Shown in pieces: positions 40,755-56,663 of a stretch of 64,000 bases of DNA. This DNA comes from an uncultured virus (IMG/VR IMGVR_UViG_2519103125_000002) (Duplodnaviria > Heunggongvirae > Uroviricota > Caudoviricetes), in IMG/VR virus record IMGVR_UViG_2519103125_000002, positions 1-64,000 of that record. One strand, 5' to 3'. The notes under the pieces are model-generated. The model was not told the DNA's origin, made no database searches, and saw nothing but the letters and a program-made list of their open reading frames with translations. Numbering within the stretch: the stretch's first letter is position 1; every line of letters starts with the position of its first letter. A program made the translations under genes and the position numbers.

Positions 40755-41093
40755 ATGACGGTACAACAAGAAAAAGTAACAAAGCGCGTGGTTTGTAGGA
40801 AATGCAAATCAGATCAAATAGTCGGTAATAAGCGTGGTTATAATTTCAAAAGGGCGTTTTTTATTCTGTTTCTTCTGTTAGGTACACTTATAACTATTGG
40901 AATAGTTTCTAATTTTTTATATGTTATAGTTCCTGAAAATTCTATGGATGGAGTTGTTGGACTTTCTGCAATTGTTGGTCTTCTTATTGTACTTCTAGGA
41001 CCACCGATAATTTTATTCAGTGGATTTGTTGGTAGAAAAAATATTGTTAATGGTTGCATGAATTGCGGACATACATGGATGCCTAAAAAATAA
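40755..41093 (+). CDS. Membrane protein with split zinc ribbon (moron)
   Basis: CRKC..two TMs..CMNCGHTW. Confidence 0.75.
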   Translation: MTVQQEKVTKRVVCRKCKSDQIVGNKRGYNFKRAFFILFLLLGTLITIGIVSNFLYVIVPENSMDGVVGLSAIVGLLIVLLGPPIILFSGFVGRKNIVNGCMNCGHTWMPKK

Positions 41094-41152
41094 AACATAA
41101 AAAGCCAAATGGATAGTTAATTAAAAACTGTTAATTTGGCTTTTTTGTATTA

Positions 41153-41539
41153 TTAAATCATCCCTAAAGATGTAGCGATCAATCGAATCGCACTTTTCTT
41201 CTTATAATAGAAGTGATCTTTCTTCATCGATAATTCAGTGTAAATAAAGCTGTCTTTCGGCTTATCTGCATTTAAGTATTTCCTCTTGATAATCTCAGCC
41301 TCGTCATAATCCAAAACATACTGTAAAGCCTTATCGATCTGCTTGAACTTGATATTGCTAATATGTCTCGTGTTTCTAATCTCAGGGAACAAACTGATTC
41401 CTTCGTGTTTTAACTCCACTTCATTTTCAAAACGCGTTTTCAATGCGCGGTATTCCTTTAGTATTTTCACTACTTCTTTCTGAACCTGTTTTTCTGTCTC
41501 TCTATCAATAGTCGGTAATAATGTTAATTGTCTCTCCAT
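41153..41539 (-). CDS. ArpU-family late/packaging transcriptional activator
   Basis: ALQYVLD.DEAEIIKRKYL..FYYKKKSAI..IATSLGMI. Confidence 0.9.
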   Translation of the reverse strand: MERQLTLLPTIDRETEKQVQKEVVKILKEYRALKTRFENEVELKHEGISLFPEIRNTRHISNIKFKQIDKALQYVLDYDEAEIIKRKYLNADKPKDSFIYTELSMKKDHFYYKKKSAIRLIATSLGMI

Positions 41540-41677
41540 GAAGGAATCCCCCTATTTCTGAATTTGTCTTTTTACATTCACATCAGGTACGTGAAATTTT
41601 ACTATCTCTTTGTTGAATAAGGGAAACATGCATAGCGAATAGTCCCCACCATCCACCTTGCAAGGTTCCGTTATCCA

Positions 41678-42307
41678 TTAAACCCTTAATAATTTACATT
41701 TCTTGTTGGCCATCTTCTCTTTTGCTGCTTCAATATTATTCGCTACCTTTTGATAGTCCTGATCAAATTGAATCATTCCATCAAACATGACTGGTGCTAC
41801 TATTTCGTCAACATATTGCAAGTAATCAATCGGCGCTCGTTCTGTCTGTTCTACTAAATACCCATAAATATCAAAGTCTGCTCTTGGTATAGACTTCTTG
41901 CCCTTCGGTTGATGAGACATCCTTACATAAGATTGAATGACTGATAGTGGCACTGCGAATACTGACCTATCCTTACTGAATTCTATAAGGAAGAAGCATA
42001 TCGCTCCCATCTTCTCCGCTTTCTCCAAGTAATCCAATTGATGCTGTGCAATGTTCTTTAAATCAAAACGTGTATCTTTCTCTGTAGACTTCGCTTCAAA
42101 TGCGATAGCTCGTCCCTTATATACACCGTCATAGTCTACTGTGCTCTTTGCTTCATAGAATCCATTTAGTACACGGCCACCTTTACTTTTTAACACCTTC
42201 ACAGGAGTCGGACGCTTGTTAATAAGCGCCACTCCTCCTCTTTGATACATTTCATTCGCTAGATTGATAAGCATTTCAAATGCCATCCCACGGTTTCCTA
42301 GTCCCAT
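41678..42307 (-). CDS. recU: Holliday junction resolvase RecU
   Basis: NRGMAFE, KRPTP, STVDYDGVYKG..FEAKST, HQ..YL. Confidence 0.95.
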   Translation of the reverse strand: MGLGNRGMAFEMLINLANEMYQRGGVALINKRPTPVKVLKSKGGRVLNGFYEAKSTVDYDGVYKGRAIAFEAKSTEKDTRFDLKNIAQHQLDYLEKAEKMGAICFFLIEFSKDRSVFAVPLSVIQSYVRMSHQPKGKKSIPRADFDIYGYLVEQTERAPIDYLQYVDEIVAPVMFDGMIQFDQDYQKVANNIEAAKEKMANKKCKLLRV

Positions 42308-42418
42308 TGTTATTCCTCACTTTCTATTAAAAAGATTATTTTGTTGAATTTTTTACTACCAATCACCAAAAATATCTTATAATCGTTATATGCAAACTTA
42401 TTTTTAGGAGTAGATAGA

Positions 42419-42607
42419 ATGCCAGTTACACTCGAACTTATTCTTTTCATTCTTATAGCAATTAGTGCTGTTGGCTATTTGATAAAAGAATCTCAAAAAA
42501 CTAAGAAAAGAACCCTTGGAATTTCACTAGAACTTTTAATTCTTTTCTGGTCAACGTGGAGAATATCGACTATCATAATCAAAATTTTAGAATATAATTT
42601 CTCGTGA
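42419..42607 (+). CDS. Small membrane protein (moron cassette)
   Basis: AGGAG RBS; TATAAT promoter; two TMs. Confidence 0.6.
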   Translation: MPVTLELILFILIAISAVGYLIKESQKTKKRTLGISLELLILFWSTWRISTIIIKILEYNFS

Positions 42608-42714
42608 ATAAAATTAAATATTCCGTCAATAATGTATATGACATCAGATTTTCTCCTTGTTCCCCCTTGGAGAACCGAGCAGTTAGCTTTTGCTAGCTGC
42701 TCTTTATTTGTAAG

Positions 42715-43605
42715 AAGCACTCAATTAACTGGACACACATATAATATTCTGAGTTCCTTTCTTTATAAAATAGTCGTTATAAAATGAGACTCGTCACGAG
42801 AGCACTTTACTAAGTGCTCTTTTTATATTCCAACCTAATACAAAATGAAGTTTTTATATAAAGTTTTCTCAAGATCTACACCCTGGAAATAAATTACCTT
42901 TTATGGTAACGTATTGGTAATCCCATAAAGTTCTATTGTTCCATTAAAAAGGACCCCTACCCCTTTTCCGGGTCCTTTTTCAACGTTTTCTACTAAAATA
43001 GCGTTTTTTATTCAAATTGATGCCCTGCTTATTTGGGCACATTTACCAGTGTTTTTACCAAAAAATTCATGATACTGTTAATTAGTCGAGTACGTCATTA
43101 CTTGACGATTACCCTTAGGGGCTCCCCAGACAAATGGGGCTCCTTTTATTCAAATAACTATTTTGTTTAAATTTCATTAACCTTATTGATTCCTTTACAT
43201 ACAGTATTATCACAAGAAATTCAATAAGTGCTCCGGTCTAGTTATCTTGAATTTCTTGCAAATCTTGTGGGAAGAATCCGTTTATAACAAACGGGTTCTT
43301 TTATTTATTCATCATAAAATAACTATTTTGTTCACTTTTTTGATACATTTACGAAACATTTATGTGTTATCTTCAGTAAGTTCTTTTCTTTTCATAAAAT
43401 TGTGTGAGTTATACCGACACAAGAAGCCCTAGATCCCTAAATCTAGGGCTCCTTCGTTTAAATAACTATTTTGTTCACTTTGTTGTATAGACGACTATAT
43501 ATTTAGATGTTAAAATATTATTGTGATTCCCACTTGGTTTCACATACGACTTTTTTTCTTCGATTATGGGGTTCTTACGTAATAGTAAGGACCATTTTTT
43601 TATTT
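42715..43605 (+). ncRNA. Array of about six promoter-sRNA-terminator cassettes separated by AAATAACTATTTTGTT-like repeats
   Basis: Repeats at ~42841, 42994, 43152, 43317, 43460; each unit has a -10-like box and a GC hairpin, usually with a T-tract. Confidence 0.6.
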
Positions 43606-43750
43606 AGTGCCCATAGCCAGTAAATCCGAGGCCCATATTTCTTTCTGATTCCAATAATCCCAACGTTTCTACTGACGCTATGACGCTTACTGGTGCCTCA
43701 TTCAATCAAATGAGTTTCTGCCCTTTAAATACGTCATAACGCTATGTCTC

Positions 43751-44014
43751 CTAATCCAAATTCATTATCTCTTCTAAGCTTCTATCAGAAATATACGTGG
43801 TGATAATCTGTATCTTTCCGTATTTCTTTTTAGCCATTCCTATAGCTTCGCTCTCGGACTTCGCCTCAAACCAACGAAGCTTCCACTTCTCGTCTTTGTC
43901 GTAAAACTCTACTGAGTACGTCATAACGCTATTACGCTTCAAGAATTTGTCCACGGTACTTGTTGCGGTATAATCAAAACTTCCGACTACATCCTCCAGT
44001 GTTAGTTGTTTCAT
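43751..44014 (-). CDS. Hypothetical phage protein
   Basis: Translationally coupled in early operon. Confidence 0.7.
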   Translation of the reverse strand: MKQLTLEDVVGSFDYTATSTVDKFLKRNSVMTYSVEFYDKDEKWKLRWFEAKSESEAIGMAKKKYGKIQIITTYISDRSLEEIMNLD

Positions 44015-44298
44015 GCCCCTAACCCCATTGGACGCGATTTGATTTTGTTCTTATCTGCCTGATCCATAATTAATGCGGCGATTTCTAGTTGATGCCTTCC
44101 TAGCTCTTTTGCTATTTCAAGAATATCTTTATCCTCATCCCACATTTCTCTTAATCGAATCACTTCGCTTTCATCAAACACTAAATCCAACTCTTCTAAA
44201 GCGATATATAAGTTACGACGCGACTTCTTCATATACTTCCCCTGCTGCAACGCCATTGTGTAATTCTCCTTTTCCAAATCCGTTCCAAGTCGTGGCAT
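44011..44298 (-). CDS. HTH-domain phage protein
   Basis: ILEIAKELGRHQLEI. Confidence 0.7.
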   Translation of the reverse strand: MPRLGTDLEKENYTMALQQGKYMKKSRRNLYIALEELDLVFDESEVIRLREMWDEDKDILEIAKELGRHQLEIAALIMDQADKNKIKSRPMGLGA

Positions 44299-44476
44299 CC
44301 CATTTCCCCTCCAGTTGTAATTGATGAATTTCTCTTAACTCCGCCATAACGGCATGACGTCTTCTATCGACTTCTTCAGGACTGCGATTCCCTGCTTCGC
44401 AAATACACGGTGCAAATTGATAGCAGCCATTCCCCATATCTTTGCTAATTACTCCCGCTCCTTCACATACACACAT
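44213..44476 (-). CDS. Cys-containing hypothetical phage protein
   Basis: MCVCEG..PCIC; follows helicase loader gene. Confidence 0.6.
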   Translation of the reverse strand: MCVCEGAGVISKDMGNGCYQFAPCICEAGNRSPEEVDRRRHAVMAELREIHQLQLEGKWDATTWNGFGKGELHNGVAAGEVYEEVAS

Positions 44477-45233
44477 CGTTTATTCCCCCTTTTAAAATTG
44501 CAATGCCTTTCTTCTGTAATCCTTTGTTTCTTTGAAAGTAATCGTTCTGAAATTATTGAGAATCCGTGATACAATCCGTTCATCGTATGCGTCGTCTAAA
44601 CGCTTCCCTGTAAGGTTTGTGGTGAAGATAGTAGATTTACCTTGCCTACCATCGAAAACATCGAATAACACCCTATTAATGAAGTTTGTTGCTTTTGTAT
44701 TTGCATCTAACGCGCCTAACTCTGCTCCTAAATCATCGACTATTAATACTTCTGCTTTTACTAGACTTCGAATGATTGCACCTTCAGTTAGTGTGGAGTC
44801 TTTGCTGAACGTACTTTTTATTTTCCGTAGCAATTCGCCAACTGTAACGAAGACAACTGACTTCCCTGCTCCTGCAAGCTGATCCGCTATAGCGTAAGCA
44901 AGATGTGTTTTCCCTGCCCCGCAATTTCCTGCCATAATCGTGTTAAATATCTTTCCGTTGAGATAATCCGTAGCGATGACCTTTGCGAGTTCAAGATTCT
45001 TCGCGCCTTCCTCGCTAGTAGGTTGGTAGTTATCAAAATTGGCTTTCTTAATGTTGCTATCGGCTATCATGCTTTGTTGGTGAAACATGAATTTCTTCTC
45101 GTTCGCTTTATCTGCATCGTATTTCGCTTGTTCCTGTTGCTGAAGCTTCTTACTATCGTTTTCAAGGAAACATCGAGGGCAAACAACTTGTCCACCGAAC
45201 TTCATCTTATTCATGCCATGCGTATCACACACA

Positions 45234-46145
<912 letters not shown>

Positions 46146-46558: not shown

Positions 46559-47191
46559 TTAGTTTGTTTGTTCTATTTTTTCTACTTGTTCTTGCTCTTC
46601 AGTTTCAGAAGTTTCTTTTTCAGCCTGTTTAACCCACTTTGTTAATTTCTTAAGTACTTCTCCAGCTTGTTTTAATGTCAATTCGCCAACCTCTTTAATA
46701 CCTAAGTATCCTTTAATCGTGTCTTCATCCACTTTTCGAAGGGTAGCTAATTTTTTTATGTTTAATTTAATTGCACCAACTTGTTGAGCAGTAATCATTT
46801 CCTCCTGGATCTCTGGTAAATCTTCACCTGCATAGATGTACAATCCTAATCCGTGAAGTGCAATTGCCTTTACTAAGCAACGTTGGATACTTGTGTTAAT
46901 GTCAAAGCTGTTAGGCTCTGCAATCGGCTTGTTCTGATTGTTAAGTATCGGGTGAATCTGACTTAGTGATATTCCTTGTACAGTTACTTCAACTTCTACA
47001 AAGTAACCACAATCTGTTTTGAGGTAAGGCACTCCATCAAATCGTTTTACTTCCCATGTAGCTGTTGGATCTACTTCACGAAGCTTTTTAACTGCCCATG
47101 CCCACGATAAGTAATTAAAACGCCCTTTCTTCTCAACATGTCCCGAACAATCTATTTGAGCCAATTTAGAAAAGTAATTTTCAGTTATCAT
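46559..47191 (-). CDS. Sak-like single-strand annealing protein (DUF1071)
   Basis: YLSWAWA, DINTSIQRCLVKAIALHGLGLYIYAGEDLP. Confidence 0.9.
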   Translation of the reverse strand: MITENYFSKLAQIDCSGHVEKKGRFNYLSWAWAVKKLREVDPTATWEVKRFDGVPYLKTDCGYFVEVEVTVQGISLSQIHPILNNQNKPIAEPNSFDINTSIQRCLVKAIALHGLGLYIYAGEDLPEIQEEMITAQQVGAIKLNIKKLATLRKVDEDTIKGYLGIKEVGELTLKQAGEVLKKLTKWVKQAEKETSETEEQEQVEKIEQTN

Positions 47192-48755: not shown

Positions 48756-49292
48756 TTACACATGCTTCCAAGTCTCATTTCTTACAACCTTCCCTATAGT
48801 TGAATGTGATGTTCCGAATGTTCTAGCCATTGCTCTAGCTCCATATTTAGAGTGGCCTGGTTTGTAGTGTTTTCTTATCCATTCAATTTGTTCTTCAGTA
48901 AAAACAGCTGTATGAATCTGTTCACCTTTTGCGTTTAAATCATTTTTAATTGCATGTTTTTTATTTTCCTTATCTGTCACAAATTCCAAATTGCTTAATC
49001 TGTTATTAGTCTTATCTCCATCAATATGATTAACTTGCATCTTCTCTTCTTGGCACTTATTAAAAGATTCAATAACTAATCTGTGTATATAAAATCTCCT
49101 TTGTATTCCTTTTTCGTCAGTTAATCCTATTCTTAAATAACCTTTTTTGGTAACAACAGGTGTTAAGATTCTGCCTTTTACGCTATTCCCTCTTTTTATA
49201 ACTGTTTTAACTCTACCTAGATTGCTAATCACATATATCCCTTCATAACCTATTAAATCTACCCATATCTCATTTTGTTCTTTTGATTCCAC
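48756..49292 (-). CDS. NUMOD4-HNH homing endonuclease
   Basis: EIWVDLIGYEGIYVISNLGRVK; HRLV..VNHIDGDKTNNRLSNLE. Confidence 0.95.
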   Translation of the reverse strand: MESKEQNEIWVDLIGYEGIYVISNLGRVKTVIKRGNSVKGRILTPVVTKKGYLRIGLTDEKGIQRRFYIHRLVIESFNKCQEEKMQVNHIDGDKTNNRLSNLEFVTDKENKKHAIKNDLNAKGEQIHTAVFTEEQIEWIRKHYKPGHSKYGARAMARTFGTSHSTIGKVVRNETWKHV

Positions 49293-49940: not shown

Positions 49941-50285
49941 ATGAACTTAAACGAAAGATTGAAAGCGTGCCGCGAAAAGAAGGGGTACACACAGACTTTC
50001 ATCTCAGAAAAATTAGACGTAAACAAAGCCACTTTATCTAGTTACGAATCAGGAAGACGTAAACCTGACTACGAAACATTAACTAAACTAGCAGACATAT
50101 ACGAAGTTTCTATTGATTACTTATTAGGAAGAGCGATGCATCAAAAGTTAACAGTTAAAGAAACAGAAGAGATAAGTAAAGAAACTAACGAATGGATGAC
50201 ACTGATTAATCAACTATCAGAGGACAACAAAGAGTTGTTTAAATCAACAATTCAAAGCTTTATATCTAAAAACAAAACTCCGTAA
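49941..50285 (+). CDS. CI-like XRE repressor (no peptidase domain)
   Basis: RLKACREKKGYTQ..TLSSYESGRRKPD..VSIDYLLGR. Confidence 0.9.
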   Translation: MNLNERLKACREKKGYTQTFISEKLDVNKATLSSYESGRRKPDYETLTKLADIYEVSIDYLLGRAMHQKLTVKETEEISKETNEWMTLINQLSEDNKELFKSTIQSFISKNKTP

Positions 50286-50761: not shown

Positions 50762-51910
50762 CTATATAATCCCTAGAGATTTCTTAGGTAATTGAGCATA
50801 AAAAATATTCCCTAATCGCTCAAACATATCTAGTGATTTCAATAACAGTTCTTTGTCATTTTTCGCTAGGCCTAAATAGTAAATTTGAAATGCGCTCAGT
50901 TCCCCGTTCTCTTCTTTCAACTTCATTAAAATTTTAATTGCATGTTCATTATTACCCTTTTGTATTTCTAAATATGCTTGTTCAGCAGCATGTAATGGTT
51001 TAATATTTTCTAAATCAACTTTATGATGTATTTTTAGAAACTCAATAGTATTAGCTATCATTGTTCTTCTCATTTCCATTTGATTACTCGACTCTTTCTC
51101 TAAAATGCTCAATGCTTTTTTCAGATAAAATATCGATTTGTCAAAGGATTCATCACATAGCATAAACGATTCTCCCAATACACCATATACTGTTGCTTCT
51201 ACAACAGGAAAACGATTATTGATAGGTATACTTTGTATCACTTCTTCGCATATTTCTCTTAGTTTTTCTAGTTCGTATGCGGTTAAATGACCATGAATTG
51301 CACATTCCTTTATCTTATAAAAAAACGATTCTTTTAGATAAGGATCTTTAATATCATTTAGTTTCTCCATTAAAAAATCGGATTTGTTAACCATTAACTT
51401 AAAGTTACCTTGATCGTAAGCTGATAGCATTTCTATTTCTTCGGATAAAATCTCTAATTCTTTACTTTTTAATTTGAGGTATTTCTTTCTCTTATTTAAT
51501 TCCAAAAGTAATTTTTCGCCTTTTATGTGTCCTTTATATCTTTTATAAATCAGTTCATACAAGCTTGCCCATTCGCGATTTTCTTTATTTGCTGAAGTCA
51601 TTTCTTGGTCTACTAGTCGTTTTAAAAGTTCCAACTCTCCATGAGCCATTAAATAATTCATCGCAATTTTTTTATTAAGATGTCTTTTAGTATTAGTAAA
51701 GTATTTAGCGCAAAGATCTCGACGTAACTCTACATCATTAGGATAAGCGATTTTTAAAAGTTCTCCGTACTTGTCGAATCTAATTCCATCTTTCTCCTTA
51801 AAAAATTTAGAAACCGTCACGTTGCTTAAACTGATTTGTTTTGAAATATTTCTATCGCTTATTCCTTTAGCGTACAAATCATTTTGCAACTTCACTATTG
51901 AACTTTGCAC
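50762..51910 (-). CDS. aimR: AimR-family lysis-lysogeny peptide receptor (HTH plus TPR, RRNPP)
   Basis: 382 aa; N-terminal HTH, NREWASLYEL motif, C-terminal FERLGNIFYAQLPK; followed by peptide gene. Confidence 0.92.
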   Translation of the reverse strand: MQSSIVKLQNDLYAKGISDRNISKQISLSNVTVSKFFKEKDGIRFDKYGELLKIAYPNDVELRRDLCAKYFTNTKRHLNKKIAMNYLMAHGELELLKRLVDQEMTSANKENREWASLYELIYKRYKGHIKGEKLLLELNKRKKYLKLKSKELEILSEEIEMLSAYDQGNFKLMVNKSDFLMEKLNDIKDPYLKESFFYKIKECAIHGHLTAYELEKLREICEEVIQSIPINNRFPVVEATVYGVLGESFMLCDESFDKSIFYLKKALSILEKESSNQMEMRRTMIANTIEFLKIHHKVDLENIKPLHAAEQAYLEIQKGNNEHAIKILMKLKEENGELSAFQIYYLGLAKNDKELLLKSLDMFERLGNIFYAQLPKKSLGII

Positions 51911-52345: not shown

Positions 52346-53842
52346 TTGGGAGTAAAAATAGCAATATTAATTGGTGTAAGCGAATATAAAAATATTAGTA
52401 ATTTAGATGCATGCTTATGTGATATTGAGGTAATGCATGAACTACTTAAGCAAACAAATGAATATAGTGAAATTTTATTTATTAACAAGAATTTGAATAG
52501 TAATCAAGTAAAAGACCAAGTTGTAGAGTTTGTAAAAAAATATGAAAATCCTGAGGAAGAAATCGATCAGGTATTTTTCTATTTTACTGGACATGGTAAG
52601 ACAAACTCATCTGATGTTCATTTCTTGTTATCAGATTATGAATCCACAAAGTTAAAGGCTACTTCTTTACAAAATTCAGAGGTAGATAGTTATTTACGAT
52701 TGTTAAGTCCTAAATTAGCTGTAAAGGTCATTGACGCATGCTATTCAGGTGCTACATATATTAAAGACGATGAACAACTTGTAGAAAAAACTTTAAGGGA
52801 ATCTGCAAGGAAAAAAGAATTGAGAGACTGTTATTTTATGTTTTCGTCTCAAAATAATGAACCTTCTCTTGCACAAAGGTTAAGTTATTTTACAGAAAGT
52901 TTTGTCCAAGCAGTTCTTGATCAAGATGCTGGAACTACAATTAGATTTAAGAATATTACAGACAGAATATCTGATACATTTAGTTCAATATATAAAGACG
53001 AACAAACTCCTAAGTTTGTTTTTCAAGCTAATCTTACAGAGGATTTTTGTTCAGTAACAACTGAGTTAAAAGAACAAGTTGAAAAAAAATTAGAGGATAT
53101 CGGGGCAGTTACTTCAGAAGCCTTAGTAGAAGAAAAAGAAGAATTTTCCTTAATCGAAATGGTTAAAAAAGAAGCAGAAGATTACTGTACAGATTTTTCG
53201 GAAATCATAAATGCTGTTGATATAATAGGGGATAAGTTTGAAAAGTTTACACTACCAAATCACATAGCTGACCTCTATGAGTTATCAGTTAATAAAGGTT
53301 GTATAAATAGAGGGATTCCTTTAAGTAATATTGATAAACATAAAGCTGTACTTAATTTACTTAAAGAAAAACAAAATGATTATTTTGTTAATGTAATATA
53401 TGAAGAGGAAGAAGAATCTACAAATCCTTATAGCCTTGCTTCACTATATCCCTCATTTGGAAGGAAAAAAGAAAAGAAACCTATAGATTTAGAAGTGCTA
53501 TCTGGGGATATTCCCTTTGATTATATCTCTATTGAAATTAAGGCGAAGTATCCTAGTCTTAAATCTTATAAATTTTCGTTAATAATTTTCCTGTCACGTA
53601 TGAATTTCCTGATTATGAATTCTGTTGCGCCATATAAGGAAATTGCATGGAATCAATTTGCAACAGAAGAAGAAGAAATGAAATGGGTATACAGGGAAAT
53701 TAAAATTAAAGACACTCCACATTTGACAATCACTACTGAAAAAATCTTAAGTCAGTGTACGAATATCATACTTGATGAACTAGGAACAAAATTTGAAATG
53801 CAAGGTAAAGACAAAAATGGTAATTTGATTAAAACACCATAA
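52346..53842 (+). CDS. Caspase-family (peptidase C14) protein with unknown C-terminal domain
   Basis: AILIGVSEY, FYFTGHG and IDACYSG His/Cys dyad, EQTP. Confidence 0.9.
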   Translation: MGVKIAILIGVSEYKNISNLDACLCDIEVMHELLKQTNEYSEILFINKNLNSNQVKDQVVEFVKKYENPEEEIDQVFFYFTGHGKTNSSDVHFLLSDYESTKLKATSLQNSEVDSYLRLLSPKLAVKVIDACYSGATYIKDDEQLVEKTLRESARKKELRDCYFMFSSQNNEPSLAQRLSYFTESFVQAVLDQDAGTTIRFKNITDRISDTFSSIYKDEQTPKFVFQANLTEDFCSVTTELKEQVEKKLEDIGAVTSEALVEEKEEFSLIEMVKKEAEDYCTDFSEIINAVDIIGDKFEKFTLPNHIADLYELSVNKGCINRGIPLSNIDKHKAVLNLLKEKQNDYFVNVIYEEEEESTNPYSLASLYPSFGRKKEKKPIDLEVLSGDIPFDYISIEIKAKYPSLKSYKFSLIIFLSRMNFLIMNSVAPYKEIAWNQFATEEEEMKWVYREIKIKDTPHLTITTEKILSQCTNIILDELGTKFEMQGKDKNGNLIKTP

Positions 53843-54101: not shown

Positions 54102-56663
54102 TCATATAGATTGACACTGTATCATTCTATCTTCCCACCAATCAGGGTAAACAATAATTTCTTCTATATCCTTTTCATATAATGTTGTAATAAAATCGCT
54201 AAAATCCTTTAAAATTGAGAATGAGTATACCGATACCTCTTCAGAAGTTACTCCTTTCCAAAGGATTTTTACAAATTCTTCATTCTTTAATACTTCTCTT
54301 ACTTTTTCGGCATGTATATAAGAAGCATCAACGTTTAAGTGGTGATTGCATAAATACATATATGTAAGGAAATTCTCTCGGATTACAAGGTCTTCTTTTG
54401 CCATTTCTGCAAGATTGTCTAGTTTATTGTATATATCAGATTTATGGAATCGTGAATCTCTGAATAAATAATACTTTTCGAGAGAAAAATCTTTGTCACT
54501 CCAAATATTAAGTCCGTTTTTCAAACTAAACTTATCTAGTAAATTTCGAATATAAAATGGCTCAATAATTTTAAGTAAATTTATTTTATAGTCATTAAAC
54601 TGAAGGGACATTTTCTCATCAGGATACCATGGGTCTATAATTTCTAATAACTTTTCATTGTAATTATCCGCAAGTATTTCAGTTAACTCCTTAATTATTT
54701 TCTTTTCTCTATTTCTGTTATCAATATATATATATCTATAAAATTCCTCGTATCCATTCATATTAGTATTTATCCAAATCTTTAATTGTTTATAAAGTAA
54801 ATTAAAGATTTGAACTTGATATTCTGGTATGACTAGAGGTATTAATTCTTGAATATGATTATCTAAATCTACTAGTTCTTGCTGATAGTTCTTCGCTGTT
54901 ACATGATATTTAGTTACATGGATTTTACCAAAAAGCTCGTCCCGATGATTAAAGATATGTTCAATATATTGTGATTTTAAATTTCCATTTATTAAATCGT
55001 CAAATTTTGTGTTATCTAAACGCAATCTTTCATAGTTTGATTTATATTCCTTCCATGTTAATACACTTGAACTCTCAATAATTCTAAAGTACAGATCAAA
55101 ATTCTTATCCAATTTATTTATCTGTATTTGTAATCCCATAATAATATTTTTAGCTCTTTTCATATCTTTGGATTCCACGGGATATTTATTTAAAATTTCT
55201 TTTGCGTCATCCTCTGTAATTAGACTAGCCTTTTTCTTAGAAATATAGGAAGGTGAAAACATTCCCCTAACCTCTGAATCCCTTAATATTCCTTTATATA
55301 CATTTGGAAATTCTAGATTAAGTATTTGGACTAAGTATATAAAATTTAAGTTTATTTCATCGCTTTCAAATCGTTGAAGTATAGTTGCAAGTAAGTTCAT
55401 GTTTTGAAGATACCTTTTTAGGGTTCTTGGATTATTTGGTAAATAACTTTTAATATTATTAATAACCTTGGTATCAATTTGATTTTTGGGTTTATTCAAT
55501 TCTTTTTGTAATAAATCCATTCTTCCTTCCACTGATGGTTCATCAATTGTTATATGGTAATTTATAATTTTTTCTAAGAATAAGTTCCCACTTGTTAAAT
55601 TCATTTCTTTAGTAATTATTTTACTAACTGTCTCATCATCTATTGCGAGAACGTAAGAAATTTTATCAATATTAATAATTTCTTTCACTGTTTTTAATAT
55701 AGTTAAAATTCTCTTAGCATCATCCAAACGGTCTAAATCATCAATAAATACAATAATTTTTGCGTTTTGGGGTAAATTTATATTTAAGTAATTATTAATG
55801 GCTGCCTTAATTTCATTCTCTATAGGTGTTCCGGCATTTTTTATAAGTTCATCAATTAGCTTTCCAATTGGCAATTTAGAGGTTGAATGTTGAAAAATTC
55901 TCAATGAAAATGCTTTGATTGACCTAAATATAGGAAAATTAAGGACCCCCTTATCGTGCATAATTAATTCTTGTTCTATAGCCTCTCGAAAGCCAATCCA
56001 TAACTCCTTGTCGCTGTGGTATGTCCATGGATTAAACCAGCACACAATAAAATTCTCTTTCTTTTGTAATGATTCCTTAACTAAGTTCATTAGAGACGTC
56101 TTACCAGATCCCCACCTACCGTAAACACCTATCTTTAGGCTTTCATCTTGATGCTTTTCTAGCATTTCAGCTATCCTTTCTGCTGTATTAATTCTTCCTA
56201 ATGCATCCTCTGATGATGAATATATAGACTCGTCTGAATTATTATTGGTAGATTTAAGTTCCTTTATCTTGCATTTCATTCCTCTTTTATATAAATAATA
56301 ACTACTTACTAATAAAGATAAAAAAATGAGTTGAAGTGTAATAGTGTCATTTTTCCATATGAAAAGAAGACAGCAAATTACGATGCATACAAAACTAAGA
56401 ATATATAAAACTTGATATCTCTTCATTGCTTTAACGTAAAAAAAGATTTTAACTAATGAAAAGAATATTATTCCTAAAGTAATGAGCAATACAGTATTGA
56501 ATAAATGCAGATCAGATGCTTTAGCAACGAATTTTTCTATCATTACATTTATTTTATATGGTATTTTATGAGGTATTTCATAAATTCCTGAACCAATCAA
56601 TAGCACAGCTAATATTTTAAATACAGAATCAACATAAAACCTTTTTTTATTCACTTTTTTCAC
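54102..56663 (-). CDS. KAP-family P-loop NTPase with N-terminal TM helices
   Basis: DALGR, IGVYGRWGSGKTS, FNPW, FIDDLDRL, FLEKII, NPRTLKR. Confidence 0.92.
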   Translation of the reverse strand: MKKVNKKRFYVDSVFKILAVLLIGSGIYEIPHKIPYKINVMIEKFVAKASDLHLFNTVLLITLGIIFFSLVKIFFYVKAMKRYQVLYILSFVCIVICCLLFIWKNDTITLQLIFLSLLVSSYYLYKRGMKCKIKELKSTNNNSDESIYSSSEDALGRINTAERIAEMLEKHQDESLKIGVYGRWGSGKTSLMNLVKESLQKKENFIVCWFNPWTYHSDKELWIGFREAIEQELIMHDKGVLNFPIFRSIKAFSLRIFQHSTSKLPIGKLIDELIKNAGTPIENEIKAAINNYLNINLPQNAKIIVFIDDLDRLDDAKRILTILKTVKEIINIDKISYVLAIDDETVSKIITKEMNLTSGNLFLEKIINYHITIDEPSVEGRMDLLQKELNKPKNQIDTKVINNIKSYLPNNPRTLKRYLQNMNLLATILQRFESDEINLNFIYLVQILNLEFPNVYKGILRDSEVRGMFSPSYISKKKASLITEDDAKEILNKYPVESKDMKRAKNIIMGLQIQINKLDKNFDLYFRIIESSSVLTWKEYKSNYERLRLDNTKFDDLINGNLKSQYIEHIFNHRDELFGKIHVTKYHVTAKNYQQELVDLDNHIQELIPLVIPEYQVQIFNLLYKQLKIWINTNMNGYEEFYRYIYIDNRNREKKIIKELTEILADNYNEKLLEIIDPWYPDEKMSLQFNDYKINLLKIIEPFYIRNLLDKFSLKNGLNIWSDKDFSLEKYYLFRDSRFHKSDIYNKLDNLAEMAKEDLVIRENFLTYMYLCNHHLNVDASYIHAEKVREVLKNEEFVKILWKGVTSEEVSVYSFSILKDFSDFITTLYEKDIEEIIVYPDWWEDRMIQCQSI

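What the first reader, a model, noticed from the sequence alone, without database searches (positions are those of the whole stretch)
42325..43610. Repeat-delimited array of small-RNA cassettes (CRISPR/integron-like architecture, each unit a complete mini transcription unit)
Seen: AAATAACTATTTTGTT occurs three times exactly (~43152, 43317, 43460), with degenerate AAAAT-N4-TTTT copies at ~42841, 42994 and 42329; the period is ~143-165 bp. Units are unrelated to each other and mostly ORF-free. Each has a plus-strand -10-like box (e.g. CATATAAT, CATACAGT, TGTTAAAAT), 60-100 nt of body that is often C/U-rich (TTCCTTTCTT, CCCCTACCCC, TTCTTTTCTTTTC), and a GC hairpin, mostly followed by a T-tract (GAGCAC/GTGCTC, AAGGACCC/GGGTCCTT, GGGGCTCC/GGGGCTCC, GAATCCGTTT/AAACGGGTTC, GCCCTAGAT/ATCTAGGGC, GGTTCTTAC/GTAAGGACC). 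One unit carries a small membrane ORF. All face against the lytic operon. Inference: an exchangeable array of lysogen-expressed sRNAs (anti-SD regulators or anti-phage RNAs) gained or lost at the repeat.
Basis: partly seen in the sequence, partly recalled or inferred. Interest (0 to 1): 0.8.

Follow-up and report, generated by a model that had tools for sequence, protein, structure and literature searches.

The report
Shuffled mini-gene array in Bacillus phage
A 1.3-kb stretch of a Bacillus cereus-group temperate phage is a row of tiny self-contained units, most of which look like small-RNA genes, and related phages swap these units at a shared 16-base junction sequence; the RNAs themselves have not yet been shown to be made.

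Summary
AAATAACTATTTTGTT occurs exactly three times in the phage, all in this array. There are three degenerate copies and seven plus-strand terminator hairpins.

The interval 42330-43610 holds eight modules. One encodes a 62-aa membrane protein (phrog_8028). The other seven are 105-165-nt units with no conserved ORF.

Each unit is a separate family found alone, in other orders or in other combinations. Unit matches were found in 66 of 70 scored genomes of the genus and in many phages. Homology breakpoints fall at the repeat: 26-42% of endpoints, against 5% for random positions.

The repeat is not special to these units. In relatives it also sits between ordinary minus-strand early genes, overlapping the stop codon of one gene and lying 21-24 nt before the next start codon. 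It is a general module-boundary linker of one hypervariable region. It is not a CRISPR repeat or an integron attC site.

Conserved G·U pairs show that the hairpins fold on the plus strand. A sigma-K-type promoter form, the same form as the mapped bclA promoter, is enriched on the array strand: 69 distinct matches against 6. Units C and F carry it.

Expression is unproven, because the RNA-seq evidence was too thin. The closest known analogue is the PeSL cassette of T4-type phages. This scan found the same architecture earlier on other DNA (e1-5348423).

The parts
41678..42307 (-). recU (Holliday-junction resolvase), left flank of the array; its ribosome-binding site is preceded on the minus strand by repeat copy M0
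   Evidence: Pfam RecU E 7e-46; sequence
42330..42345 (+). M0, degenerate copy of the boundary repeat (AAAAGATTATTTTGTT, 3 mismatches)
   Evidence: the same variant heads homologous units in L034, L087 and others (family 5)
42346..42607 (+). Unit A: TATAAT box at 42378-42383, SD AGGAG at 42406-42410, ORF 42419-42607 encoding a 62-aa protein with two hydrophobic segments
   Evidence: ORF list; phrog_8028 E 7e-33; no Pfam hit; hydrophobic segments and promoter box read from the sequence
42605..42709 (+). Unit B: conserved 5' box (42606-42640), hairpin with CCCCC loop (42651-42674), terminator 42677-42702
   Evidence: alignment of 30 copies A4; folds (z -6.8); stands alone in the gap between two minus-strand genes in phages BceA1 and 0105phi7-2
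42710..42842 (+). Unit C: sigma-K-form promoter AC(42719)-N17-CATATAATA(42738-42746), UUCCUUUCUU tract, terminator 42798-42821
   Evidence: (AC and CATATAAT invariant in 11 copies)
42843..42995 (+). Unit D, headed by the variant repeat AAATGAAGTTTTTATA (42843-42858): hairpin about 42899-42930, terminator 42946-42980 with ACCCCU in the loop
   Evidence: (8 copies)
42996..43151 (+). Unit E, headed by the variant repeat AAATAGCGTTTTTTAT (42996-43011): invariant core, 5' hairpin, terminator about 43116-43147
   Evidence: alignment of 26 copies A1
43152..43316 (+). Unit F, headed by an exact repeat (43152-43167): AC(43180)-N16-CATACAGTA(43198-43206), 12-bp 5' hairpin 43213-43258, terminator 43270-43302
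   Evidence: I20; pair 75-113: AU 8, GC 5
43317..43459 (+). Unit G, headed by an exact repeat (43317-43332): invariant TTGATA at 43339-43344, UUCUUUUCUUUUC tract, terminator 43425-43450
   Evidence: (14 copies, compensatory changes in the terminator stem)
43460..43610 (+). Unit H, headed by an exact repeat (43460-43475): TAGACG-N17-TAAAAT with TG (43488-43516), terminator 43570-43593
   Evidence: (7 copies)
43751..44014 (-). Right flank: 87-aa early gene (phrog_2521), followed by small ORFs and the dnaC-like gene 44492-45301
46559..47191 (-). Sak-like (Rad52-type) single-strand annealing protein, the candidate enzyme for exchange at short homologies
   Evidence: phrog_8492 and phrog_659, E 2e-74; its role here is inferred

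Best explanation
The interval is the hypervariable accessory region of a B. cereus-group temperate phage that carries an arbitrium-type regulator. It lies between the replication genes and recU.

It is built of small independent modules joined end to end. Seven of the eight modules here are plus-strand mini transcription units: a promoter-like box, a 60-95-nt body with a C/U-rich unpaired stretch, and an intrinsic terminator. They most likely make small non-coding RNAs, antisense in orientation to the early lytic operon. One module encodes a small membrane protein.

Promoter forms:
- Units C and F carry the promoter form used by sigma K, the late mother-cell sporulation sigma factor.
- Units G and H look sigma-A-like.

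The 16-nt repeat (consensus AAATAAC-N-ATTTTGTT) is the shared junction sequence of this region in the whole phage group. It separates modules of any kind, including ordinary minus-strand genes. Recombination between copies swaps, inserts or deletes modules; this probably depends on the phage's Sak-type annealing protein.

Shown: the modular structure, the breakpoints at the repeat, the plus-strand folding of the hairpins, and the enrichment of the sigma-K form.

Inferred: that the units are transcribed as discrete RNAs, when they are expressed, what they target, and which enzyme recombines them.
For: 1. Modules and boundaries.
- Phage BLAST hits cover single units only. No record holds 80% or more of the interval: 0 of 30 records and 0 of 51.
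- In a search of the genus, hits fall into discrete query ranges that equal units C, D, E, F, G and H. 66 of 70 scored genomes have matches.
- Units F and G are in swapped order in phBC6A52 and in genome G010.
- Of 1,036 unique HSP endpoints, 25.8% of left ends (n=493) and 41.8% of right ends (n=543) lie within -10..+25 nt of a repeat start. Random positions give 5.1%, with a maximum of 7.0% in 200 trials.
- Joints and loose ends of contigs and reads lie at 42329, 43152 and 43314-43318.

2. The repeat is a regional linker.
- In whole phage genomes it clusters on one strand within 1-3 kb: Fah 4 copies, phBC6A52 5, McSteamy 2, G002 5. The control pattern gives 0-1.
- Across 176 distinct instances, the upstream neighbour is a minus-gene start in 55, a plus-strand terminator in 61 and other sequence in 60. 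The downstream neighbour is a minus-gene stop in 79.

3. Plus-strand RNA.
- Six terminator-like sites on the plus strand and none on the minus strand.
- G·U cells against A·C cells in the consensus helices: 93 to 3 (unit E), 43 to 8 (B), 26 to 2 (F).
- Compensatory changes occur in units F and G.
- Fold z-scores range from -2.3 to -6.8.

4. No conserved ORF.
- Minus-strand micro-ORFs with an SD exist, but their frame is not kept. In family 1, 10 of 17 copies are in frame. Family B uses two different frames.

5. Sigma-K form.
- The B. thuringiensis bclA promoter is CAC-N16-CATATGTTA, with a mapped start site and sigK dependence (PMC4750369, passages read).
- In the window the form AC-N16/17-CATAnnnTA occurs twice on the plus strand, both times in the array.
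- In 67 oriented loci there are 69 distinct matches on the array strand against 6 on the opposite strand.
- The raw counts are 95 and 8; dinucleotide shuffles give 12.6 +/- 3.6.
- Of the 20 matches that lie within 60 nt after a repeat, 18 begin 10-12 nt after it.

6. Context.
- A Sak-like annealing protein and RecU are encoded nearby.
- The collagen-repeat protein BC_2569 is encoded next to the phBC6A52 array on the same strand. [quoted passage not shown]
Against: - No discrete transcript has been shown. In one search only 31 and 10 raw reads mapped. Both mate orientations occur, and 27 of the 31 X21 reads run on into unlike sequence, some of them across the repeat. Contigs in RNA-labelled runs cannot show strand or ends.
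- There is no Rfam match.
- Sigma-70-type promoter matches are not enriched.
- The sigma-K form is not kept in all copies of unit F: six of 14 have AATA instead of CATA, and three lack AC. Units B, D and E have no assignable promoter.
- The C/U-rich tracts read as strong Shine-Dalgarno sequences followed by start codons on the minus strand. A minus-strand role is therefore not excluded.
- No target stands out among 74 translation-initiation regions of the phage.
- Covariation is sparse because the copies are 83-85% alike.
- The loci were chosen for carrying the repeat and are related to one another, so the counts are not independent events.
Confidence: 0.55

Rival explanations
1. The functional strand is the minus (lytic) strand. 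On the early polycistronic mRNA each unit would provide an AU-rich junction (the repeat), a stabilising hairpin, a strong Shine-Dalgarno sequence and a micro-ORF. These would act as mRNA-stability or translational-coupling elements, or as micro-peptide genes. The plus-strand 'promoters' would then be by-products.
For: - SD plus start codon plus 6-16-codon ORFs are present on the minus strand of families B and 1, for example the ...HTITYACPI type.
- In BceA1 the unit B micro-ORF stops 13 nt before the SD of the next gene.
- The repeat sits 21-24 nt before start codons of ordinary minus-strand genes.
- The variable positions in family 1 include synonymous-looking Pro/Leu and Ile/Val codon changes.
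Against: - The frame is not conserved. In family 1, 10 of 17 copies are in frame. The SD-linked ATG is out of the conserved frame in L138 (2763), L121, L132 and L080, and L147 has no usable start. Family B reads the same conserved box in two frames.
- The Tyr, Ala and Cys codons never vary synonymously.
- The commonest pairs at several stem positions are G·U on the plus strand. On the minus strand these would be A·C mismatches.
- The T-tracts follow the hairpins only on the plus strand.
Confidence: 0.15
2. The units have no function of their own. They are terminator-rich filler and recombination scars that persist in a region tolerant of insertions, and they spread passively by exchange at the repeat.
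For: - No expression has been shown.
- No targets were found.
- There is no Rfam family.
- High similarity between copies could reflect recent spread rather than selection.
Against: - Each family keeps invariant cores and its helices over 7-30 distinct copies from many genomes, at 70-94% identity.
- The changes seen are G·U-compatible or compensatory.
- The sigma-K form is enriched on one strand, at a fixed distance from the repeat.
Confidence: 0.15
3. The units are decayed remnants of protein genes.
For: Annotators have called 'hypothetical protein' ORFs over some copies.
Against: - No ORF is conserved across copies on either strand.
- The units are 105-165 nt with sharp ends.
- In BceA1 and 0105phi7-2 the unit lies in the gap between two annotated genes, touching the flanking CDS by only one base.
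- The conserved parts are the hairpins and the promoter-like boxes.
Confidence: 0.03
4. It is an integron-like or CRISPR-like system with dedicated site-specific machinery acting at the repeat.
For: Repeat-delimited units of similar size; gain, loss and reordering at the repeat.
Against: - No integrase or cas family was found among the neighbours tested.
- The repeat is 16 nt, is not an imperfect inverted repeat, and is also found between ordinary genes.
- The units carry their own promoter-like boxes and terminators.
Confidence: 0.04

Closest known systems
PeSL (promoter-early stem-loop) cassettes of T4-type phages (Arbiol et al. 2010, PMC2839356; Comeau et al. 2014, PMC4122927; abstracts and outlines read)
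   Same: Short conserved sequences tied to a terminator and a promoter are concentrated in hyperplastic regions. They bound small non-essential modules and serve as points of homologous exchange that insert, delete and replace modules.
   Different: - Here the conserved part is a 16-nt AT-rich linker. The promoter and stem-loop themselves vary.
- The host is a Gram-positive spore former and the phage is temperate.
- Most modules in this array are ORF-free, lie antisense to the surrounding operon, and some carry a sporulation-type promoter form.
- Mini-circles were not tested.
Phage morons (independent promoter-gene-terminator insertions between phage genes; concept recalled from the HK97/HK022 literature, no paper read here)
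   Same: Self-contained transcription units inserted between genes of an operon. They can be expressed from the prophage independently of the lytic programme.
   Different: Here they are arrayed, most lack an ORF, and they sit at a defined junction sequence.
C-rich base-pairing sRNAs of Firmicutes (RsaE/RoxS type; recalled) and sporulation-controlled sRNAs of B. subtilis (recalled)
   Same: Size of 60-95 nt, intrinsic terminator, C/U-rich unpaired loop or linker able to pair with Shine-Dalgarno sequences.
   Different: No sequence or Rfam relationship. Expression and targets are unknown. These units are phage-borne and shuffled as cassettes.
Sigma-K-dependent exosporium gene promoters of the B. 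cereus group (bclA; PMC4750369, passages read)
   Same: Units C and F, and family 1 in relatives, match CAC/AC-N16-17-CATAnnnTA. Family 1 has exactly CATATGTTA.
   Different: Dependence on sigK is untested here. The downstream product is a short terminated RNA, not a spore protein.
Integron gene cassettes / CRISPR arrays
   Same: A repeat-delimited row of unrelated units.
   Different: No integrase, attC structure, cas genes or leader. The repeat length and unit content do not fit (see Membership tests).

Membership tests
CRISPR array | Direct repeats of about 23-55 nt separated by unique spacers of similar, short length | tested here: not met
   The repeat is 16 nt. The intervals are 143-165 nt and each contains a promoter-like box and a terminator.
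CRISPR array | Associated cas genes or leader | tested here: inconclusive
   No Cas family among the 32 window ORF queries scanned (10 Pfam, 10 PHROGs, 12 Pfam). The whole window was not scanned for cas.
Integron | Adjacent intI tyrosine recombinase with attI and Pc | tested here: not met
   The neighbours are RecU, a phrog_248 activator, DnaC-like and DnaD-like proteins and small ORFs. No recombinase was found next to the array.
Integron | Cassettes are promoterless ORFs ending in an attC imperfect inverted repeat | tested here: not met
   Seven of eight units lack an ORF and have their own boxes and terminators. The repeat is a 16-nt asymmetric AT-rich word.
PeSL-type mobile regulatory cassettes | Conserved terminator/promoter composite concentrated in a hyperplastic region between small genes | tested here: inconclusive
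   The repeat lies directly after plus-strand terminators (61 of 176 instances) and 10-12 nt before sigma-K-form boxes (18 of 20). However, only the 16-nt linker is conserved, not the promoter or the stem. Regional clustering is met.
PeSL-type mobile regulatory cassettes | Indels and replacements between related phages have their ends at the element | tested here: met
PeSL-type mobile regulatory cassettes | Mini-circles formed by exchange between neighbouring elements | not testable with these tools
   Needs PCR or sequencing of phage DNA preparations.
Trans-acting base-pairing sRNA gene | Intrinsic terminator on the coding strand and no conserved ORF | tested here: met
Trans-acting base-pairing sRNA gene | Own promoter and a discrete transcript | tested here: inconclusive
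   Boxes are present. RNA-seq gave only 31 and 10 raw reads, with no starts or ends called.
Trans-acting base-pairing sRNA gene | Identified target complementarity | tested here: not met
   Best duplexes with 74 phage translation-initiation regions are no better than shuffled controls; unit G is marginal at -33.6 against -28.5 +/- 2.2. Host targets were not tested.
Any Rfam family | Covariance-model match | tested here: not met
   0 matches at E up to 1 in 41000-45000
Sigma-K-dependent promoter | AC, 16-17 nt, CATAnnnTA (form of the mapped bclA promoter) | tested here: met
   Unit C at 42719-42746 and unit F at 43180-43206; reference form from PMC4750369. Not met for units B, D, E, G and H.
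Sigma-K-dependent promoter | Loss of transcription in a sigK mutant; mapped start site | not testable with these tools
   Needs an experiment.
Type I toxin-antitoxin (unit A) | Small hydrophobic toxin ORF with an overlapping antisense RNA | not tested
   The 62-aa ORF with two hydrophobic segments belongs to phrog_8028. No antisense unit was looked for.

The most novel reading that the evidence does not exclude
B. cereus-group temperate phages carry a shuffled library of small regulatory RNAs with C/U-rich anti-Shine-Dalgarno stretches. Some of these RNAs are switched on by sigma K in the mother cell late in sporulation, and others are expressed in the lysogen. Through them the prophage would tune host or rival-phage translation during spore formation. 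The 16-nt linker would serve both as the recombination point that lets phages trade these RNA genes and as an upstream promoter element.
Probability: 0.25. Interest if true: 0.85.

Novelty: new variant of a known kind. Interest (0 to 1): 0.62.

Why it matters
If the units are expressed, this is a large and widespread family set of phage-borne small RNAs. Copies were found in 66 of 70 scored genomes of the genus, often several per genome. No Rfam family, and none of the papers I found, describes them.

Part of the set appears wired to the late-sporulation sigma factor. That would give a concrete, testable route by which prophages act on sporulation in the B. cereus group, a link for which only phage-encoded sigma factors have been put forward in the papers found here.

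Independently of expression, the 16-nt linker is a clear case, in a Gram-positive temperate phage, of short conserved boundary sequences driving modular exchange. This supports the old 'linker' model of phage mosaicism and extends the PeSL idea beyond T4-type phages.

Tried and rejected
- **Rfam:** scan of 41000-45000 found nothing.
- **Sigma-70 promoter scan:** not enriched.
- **RNA-seq:**
  - No run held half of the words.
  - Contigs of RNA-labelled runs X3 and X7 hold parts of the array, but this does not show transcription.
  - Raw-read runs X21 and X23 gave 31 and 10 reads, with mixed orientation and no starts or ends called.
  - The result is inconclusive either way.
- **Target search:** against 74 phage translation-initiation regions, nothing beyond shuffled controls.
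- **Minus-strand micro-peptide reading:** followed up and kept only as a rival, because the frame is not conserved.
- **Repeat as a sigma-A promoter or operator on either strand:**
  - Reading the sequence, no -35/-10 pair sits at fixed distance.
  - The word is not dyad-symmetric beyond AAAT-N-ATTT.
  - The near-palindromic copy at 53370-53389 lies inside an ORF and looks like chance.
- **Repeat compared with recalled consensus sites (CodY, LexA, ComK, SpoIIID, GerE, UP element):**
  - No convincing match.
  - The UP-element position (-61 to -46) fits for sigma-K-form units only.
  - The SpoIIID-like GGACAAG seen in family 1 is a recalled motif. It was not found as text in PMC517825.
- **Sigma-E, sigma-G and ECF readings of the unit B box:** none fits by eye.
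- **Genome-contig scan for two repeats 120-150 nt apart:** 11 loci, only 2 of them Bacillus. It added little.
- **Relatives search from the virus record:** not available.
- **Earlier findings by place:** nothing.
Full report
**What is there**

The window is almost the whole of a 65,743-bp virus record with direct terminal repeats. Genes around the finding lie on the minus strand:
- a Sak-like annealing protein (46559-47191)
- a DnaD-like organiser (45234-46145)
- a DnaC-like loader (44492-45301)
- three small ORFs
- RecU (41678-42307)
- a phrog_248 transcriptional activator (41153-41539)

A divergent pair of HTH genes and an AimR-like gene lie further right. The plus strand is the strand of the cI-like gene 49941-50285.

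Between 42308 and 43750 there is no minus-strand gene.

**Check of the observation**

- AAATAACTATTTTGTT occurs exactly at 43152, 43317 and 43460 and nowhere else in the record.
- With up to three mismatches the word is not enriched over the window (10 matches against 5.84 expected). The signal is therefore the local exact copies.
- The copy at 42330 and the forms at 42843 and 42996 are the same variants that head homologous units in other phages.
- Six terminator-like sites lie on the plus strand and none on the minus strand, against 1.8 expected. A seventh, at 42946-42980, has a long loop and appears in the fold.
- The interval resolves into eight modules, A to H (see parts). Unit A encodes a 62-aa protein of phrog_8028. 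Units B to H have no conserved ORF.

**The units are separate, widespread families**

- No phage record holds most of the interval: 0 of 30 records and 0 of 51. The hits cover single units.
- phBC6A52 has A, B, another unit, D, E, another unit, then G before F. Its order of F and G is the reverse of the window's.
- I reached the genus through a Bacillus locus found. In that genus 66 of 70 scored genomes have matches (71 searched, one not scored). The matches fall into discrete query ranges that correspond to units C, D, E, F, G and H, often several per genome.
- Clustering 97 plus-strand units from 38 repeat-bearing loci gave 59 single-linkage groups. A few of these come from unrelated AT-rich contigs such as L008 and L046.
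- Many of the groups encode small hydrophobic proteins with a good SD. Others are ORF-free units of 115-165 nt.

**Breakpoints lie at the repeat**

- Of 1,036 unique HSP endpoints among these loci, 25.8% of left ends and 41.8% of right ends lie within -10..+25 nt of a repeat start. Random positions give 5.1%, with a maximum of 7.0% in 200 trials.
- Independent material gives the same places. Joints and loose ends of public contigs and reads lie at 42329, 43152 and 43314-43318.
- Caveat: the loci were selected for the repeat and are related, so these are not independent events.

**What the repeat is**

- The logo is T(A/C)AAATAAC(G/T)ATTTTGTT-N-AA, preceded by a C-rich stretch and a T-run.
- I classified 176 distinct instances.
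- Upstream neighbour: the start of a minus-strand gene in 55, a plus-strand terminator in 61, other sequence in 60. In 31 of the 55 gene starts, the start codon is 21-24 nt away.
- Downstream neighbour: the stop of a minus-strand gene in 79, other sequence in 97. In 45 of the 79, the stop codon overlaps the end of the word.
- The word therefore joins modules of every kind, and recU in the window has one before its ribosome-binding site.
- In whole genomes it is confined to one strand of a 1-3-kb region. The reversed control pattern gives 0-1.
- It is a regional boundary linker. It is not a CRISPR repeat or an attC site, and no integrase or cas family adjoins it.
- No paper in the library holds the word.

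**Which strand works**

The C/U-rich tracts of the units read, on the minus strand, as strong SD sequences followed by start codons and ORFs of 6-16 codons. I took this seriously as a rival.

Against it:
- In family 1 only 10 of 17 copies keep an SD-linked start in the frame of the conserved box. In several copies the conserved ATG is in another frame.
- Family B reads its conserved box in two frames.
- The Tyr, Ala and Cys codons of family 1 never vary synonymously.

For the plus strand:
- T-tracts follow the hairpins only on that strand.
- The consensus helices hold 93, 43 and 26 G·U cells against 3, 8 and 2 A·C cells in families E, B and F. Some positions have G·U as the commonest pair in most copies.
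- Compensatory changes occur in F (AU 8, GC 5; GC 12, UA 2) and in the terminator of G.
- Of 59 terminator hairpins, 37 are more stable as plus-strand RNA and 12 as minus-strand RNA. This set was chosen by its plus-strand fold, which biases the count.

**Promoters**

- The mapped, sigK-dependent bclA promoter of B. thuringiensis is CAC-N16-CATATGTTA (PMC4750369, passages read).
- In the window the form AC-N16/17-CATAnnnTA occurs twice on the plus strand, both in the array (units C and F). It occurs three times on the minus strand, elsewhere.
- Over 67 oriented loci (252 kb) there are 69 distinct matches on the array strand and 6 on the other. The raw counts are 95 and 8, and dinucleotide shuffles give 12.6 +/- 3.6.
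- Of the 20 matches that lie within 60 nt after a repeat, 18 start 10-12 nt after it. This puts the repeat at about -61 to -46. That fits an upstream promoter element (consensus recalled), but it could equally reflect shared ancestry.
- The form is invariant in the 11 copies of unit C. It is not invariant in unit F, where six of 14 copies have AATA and three lack AC.
- Units G and H look sigma-A-like: TTGATA is invariant in G, and H has TG-N-TAAAAT.
- Units B, D and E have conserved 5' boxes that I could not assign.

**Expression**

Unproven. One search found no run with half of the words. In one search, contigs cannot show strand or ends, and the two raw-read runs gave 31 and 10 reads. Both orientations occur, and most of the X21 reads run on into unlike sequence.

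**Function**

- The predicted RNAs are 59-94 nt and consist of one or two hairpins plus a terminator. Their z-scores range from -2.3 to -6.8.
- They carry unpaired C/U-rich stretches. The loop of unit B is UUGUUCCCCCUU in the window and varies in its relatives while the flanks stay constant.
- No phage target stands out. Host targets could not be searched.
- Next to the phBC6A52 array, on the same strand, lie collagen-repeat genes. [quoted passage not shown] This fits a region that supplies sporulation-time products.

**Comparison with known systems**

- The nearest known system is the PeSL cassette of T4-type phages: small terminator/promoter composites in hyperplastic regions that mediate modular shuffling (abstracts read).
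- This case differs in several ways. The conserved part is a bare 16-nt linker. The phage is a temperate Bacillus phage. The modules are mostly ORF-free, antisense to the operon, and partly carry a sporulation promoter form.
- An earlier agent of this scan reached a like reading on another genome (e1-5348423). I treat that as a lead, not as support.

**Verdict**

The modular, repeat-bounded, exchangeable architecture is well supported. The small-RNA reading is the best explanation but awaits transcript mapping. The CRISPR/integron analogy should be dropped in favour of linker-mediated homologous shuffling.

Noticed in passing
window 50762-51910 (-): An AimR-like regulator (Pfam PF22871, E 4e-57), so the phage probably carries an arbitrium-type lysis-lysogeny communication system. 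The aimP peptide gene expected next to it was not looked for.
   Followed up: no
window 52346-53842 (+) and 54102-56663 (-): A caspase-domain protein (Peptidase_C14) and an 853-aa KAP-family P-loop NTPase lie side by side beyond the lysogeny module. They are possibly prophage-borne defence genes.
   Followed up: no
window 45464-45739, inside the DnaD-like gene 45234-46145 (-): A long purine/pyrimidine run gives a KEKEKE...KKK low-complexity insert in the replisome organiser and open frames on both strands.
   Followed up: no
window 48756-49292 (-): An HNH endonuclease with a NUMOD4 motif sits in the early region next to the cro-like HTH gene.
   Followed up: no
window 40755-41093 (+): Another plus-strand insertion against the minus-strand genes: a 112-aa protein with CxxC pairs at both ends and hydrophobic segments in the middle (phrog_3845).
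   Followed up: no
window 42677-42702; G003 and G004: The terminator hairpin of unit B (stem CAGTTAGC...GCTAGCTG) recurs on its own at many loci of two Bacillus genomes; each genome gave 13 matches to the array, most of them to this hairpin. It seems to be a reused terminator module.
   Followed up: partly
loci L011, L003, L018, L038, L052, L071, L084 and others: On the strand opposite to family-1 units there is a recurrent SD-led micro-ORF ending ...H-T-I-T-Y-A-C-P/L-I/V. The frame is kept in 10 of 17 copies, so it is not consistently coding, but this is unexplained.
   Followed up: partly
window 53370-53389: A near-palindromic double copy of the repeat word (AACAAAATGATTATTTTGTT) lies inside the caspase-like ORF; probably chance.
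   Followed up: partly
L001 3483-5258 (phBC6A52) and L003 651-866 (McSteamy): Protein genes on the array strand near the arrays of relatives are spore-related by annotation: collagen triple-helix repeat proteins and a 'spore germination protein'. In Fah there is a cupin annotated as mannose-6-phosphate isomerase.
   Followed up: partly
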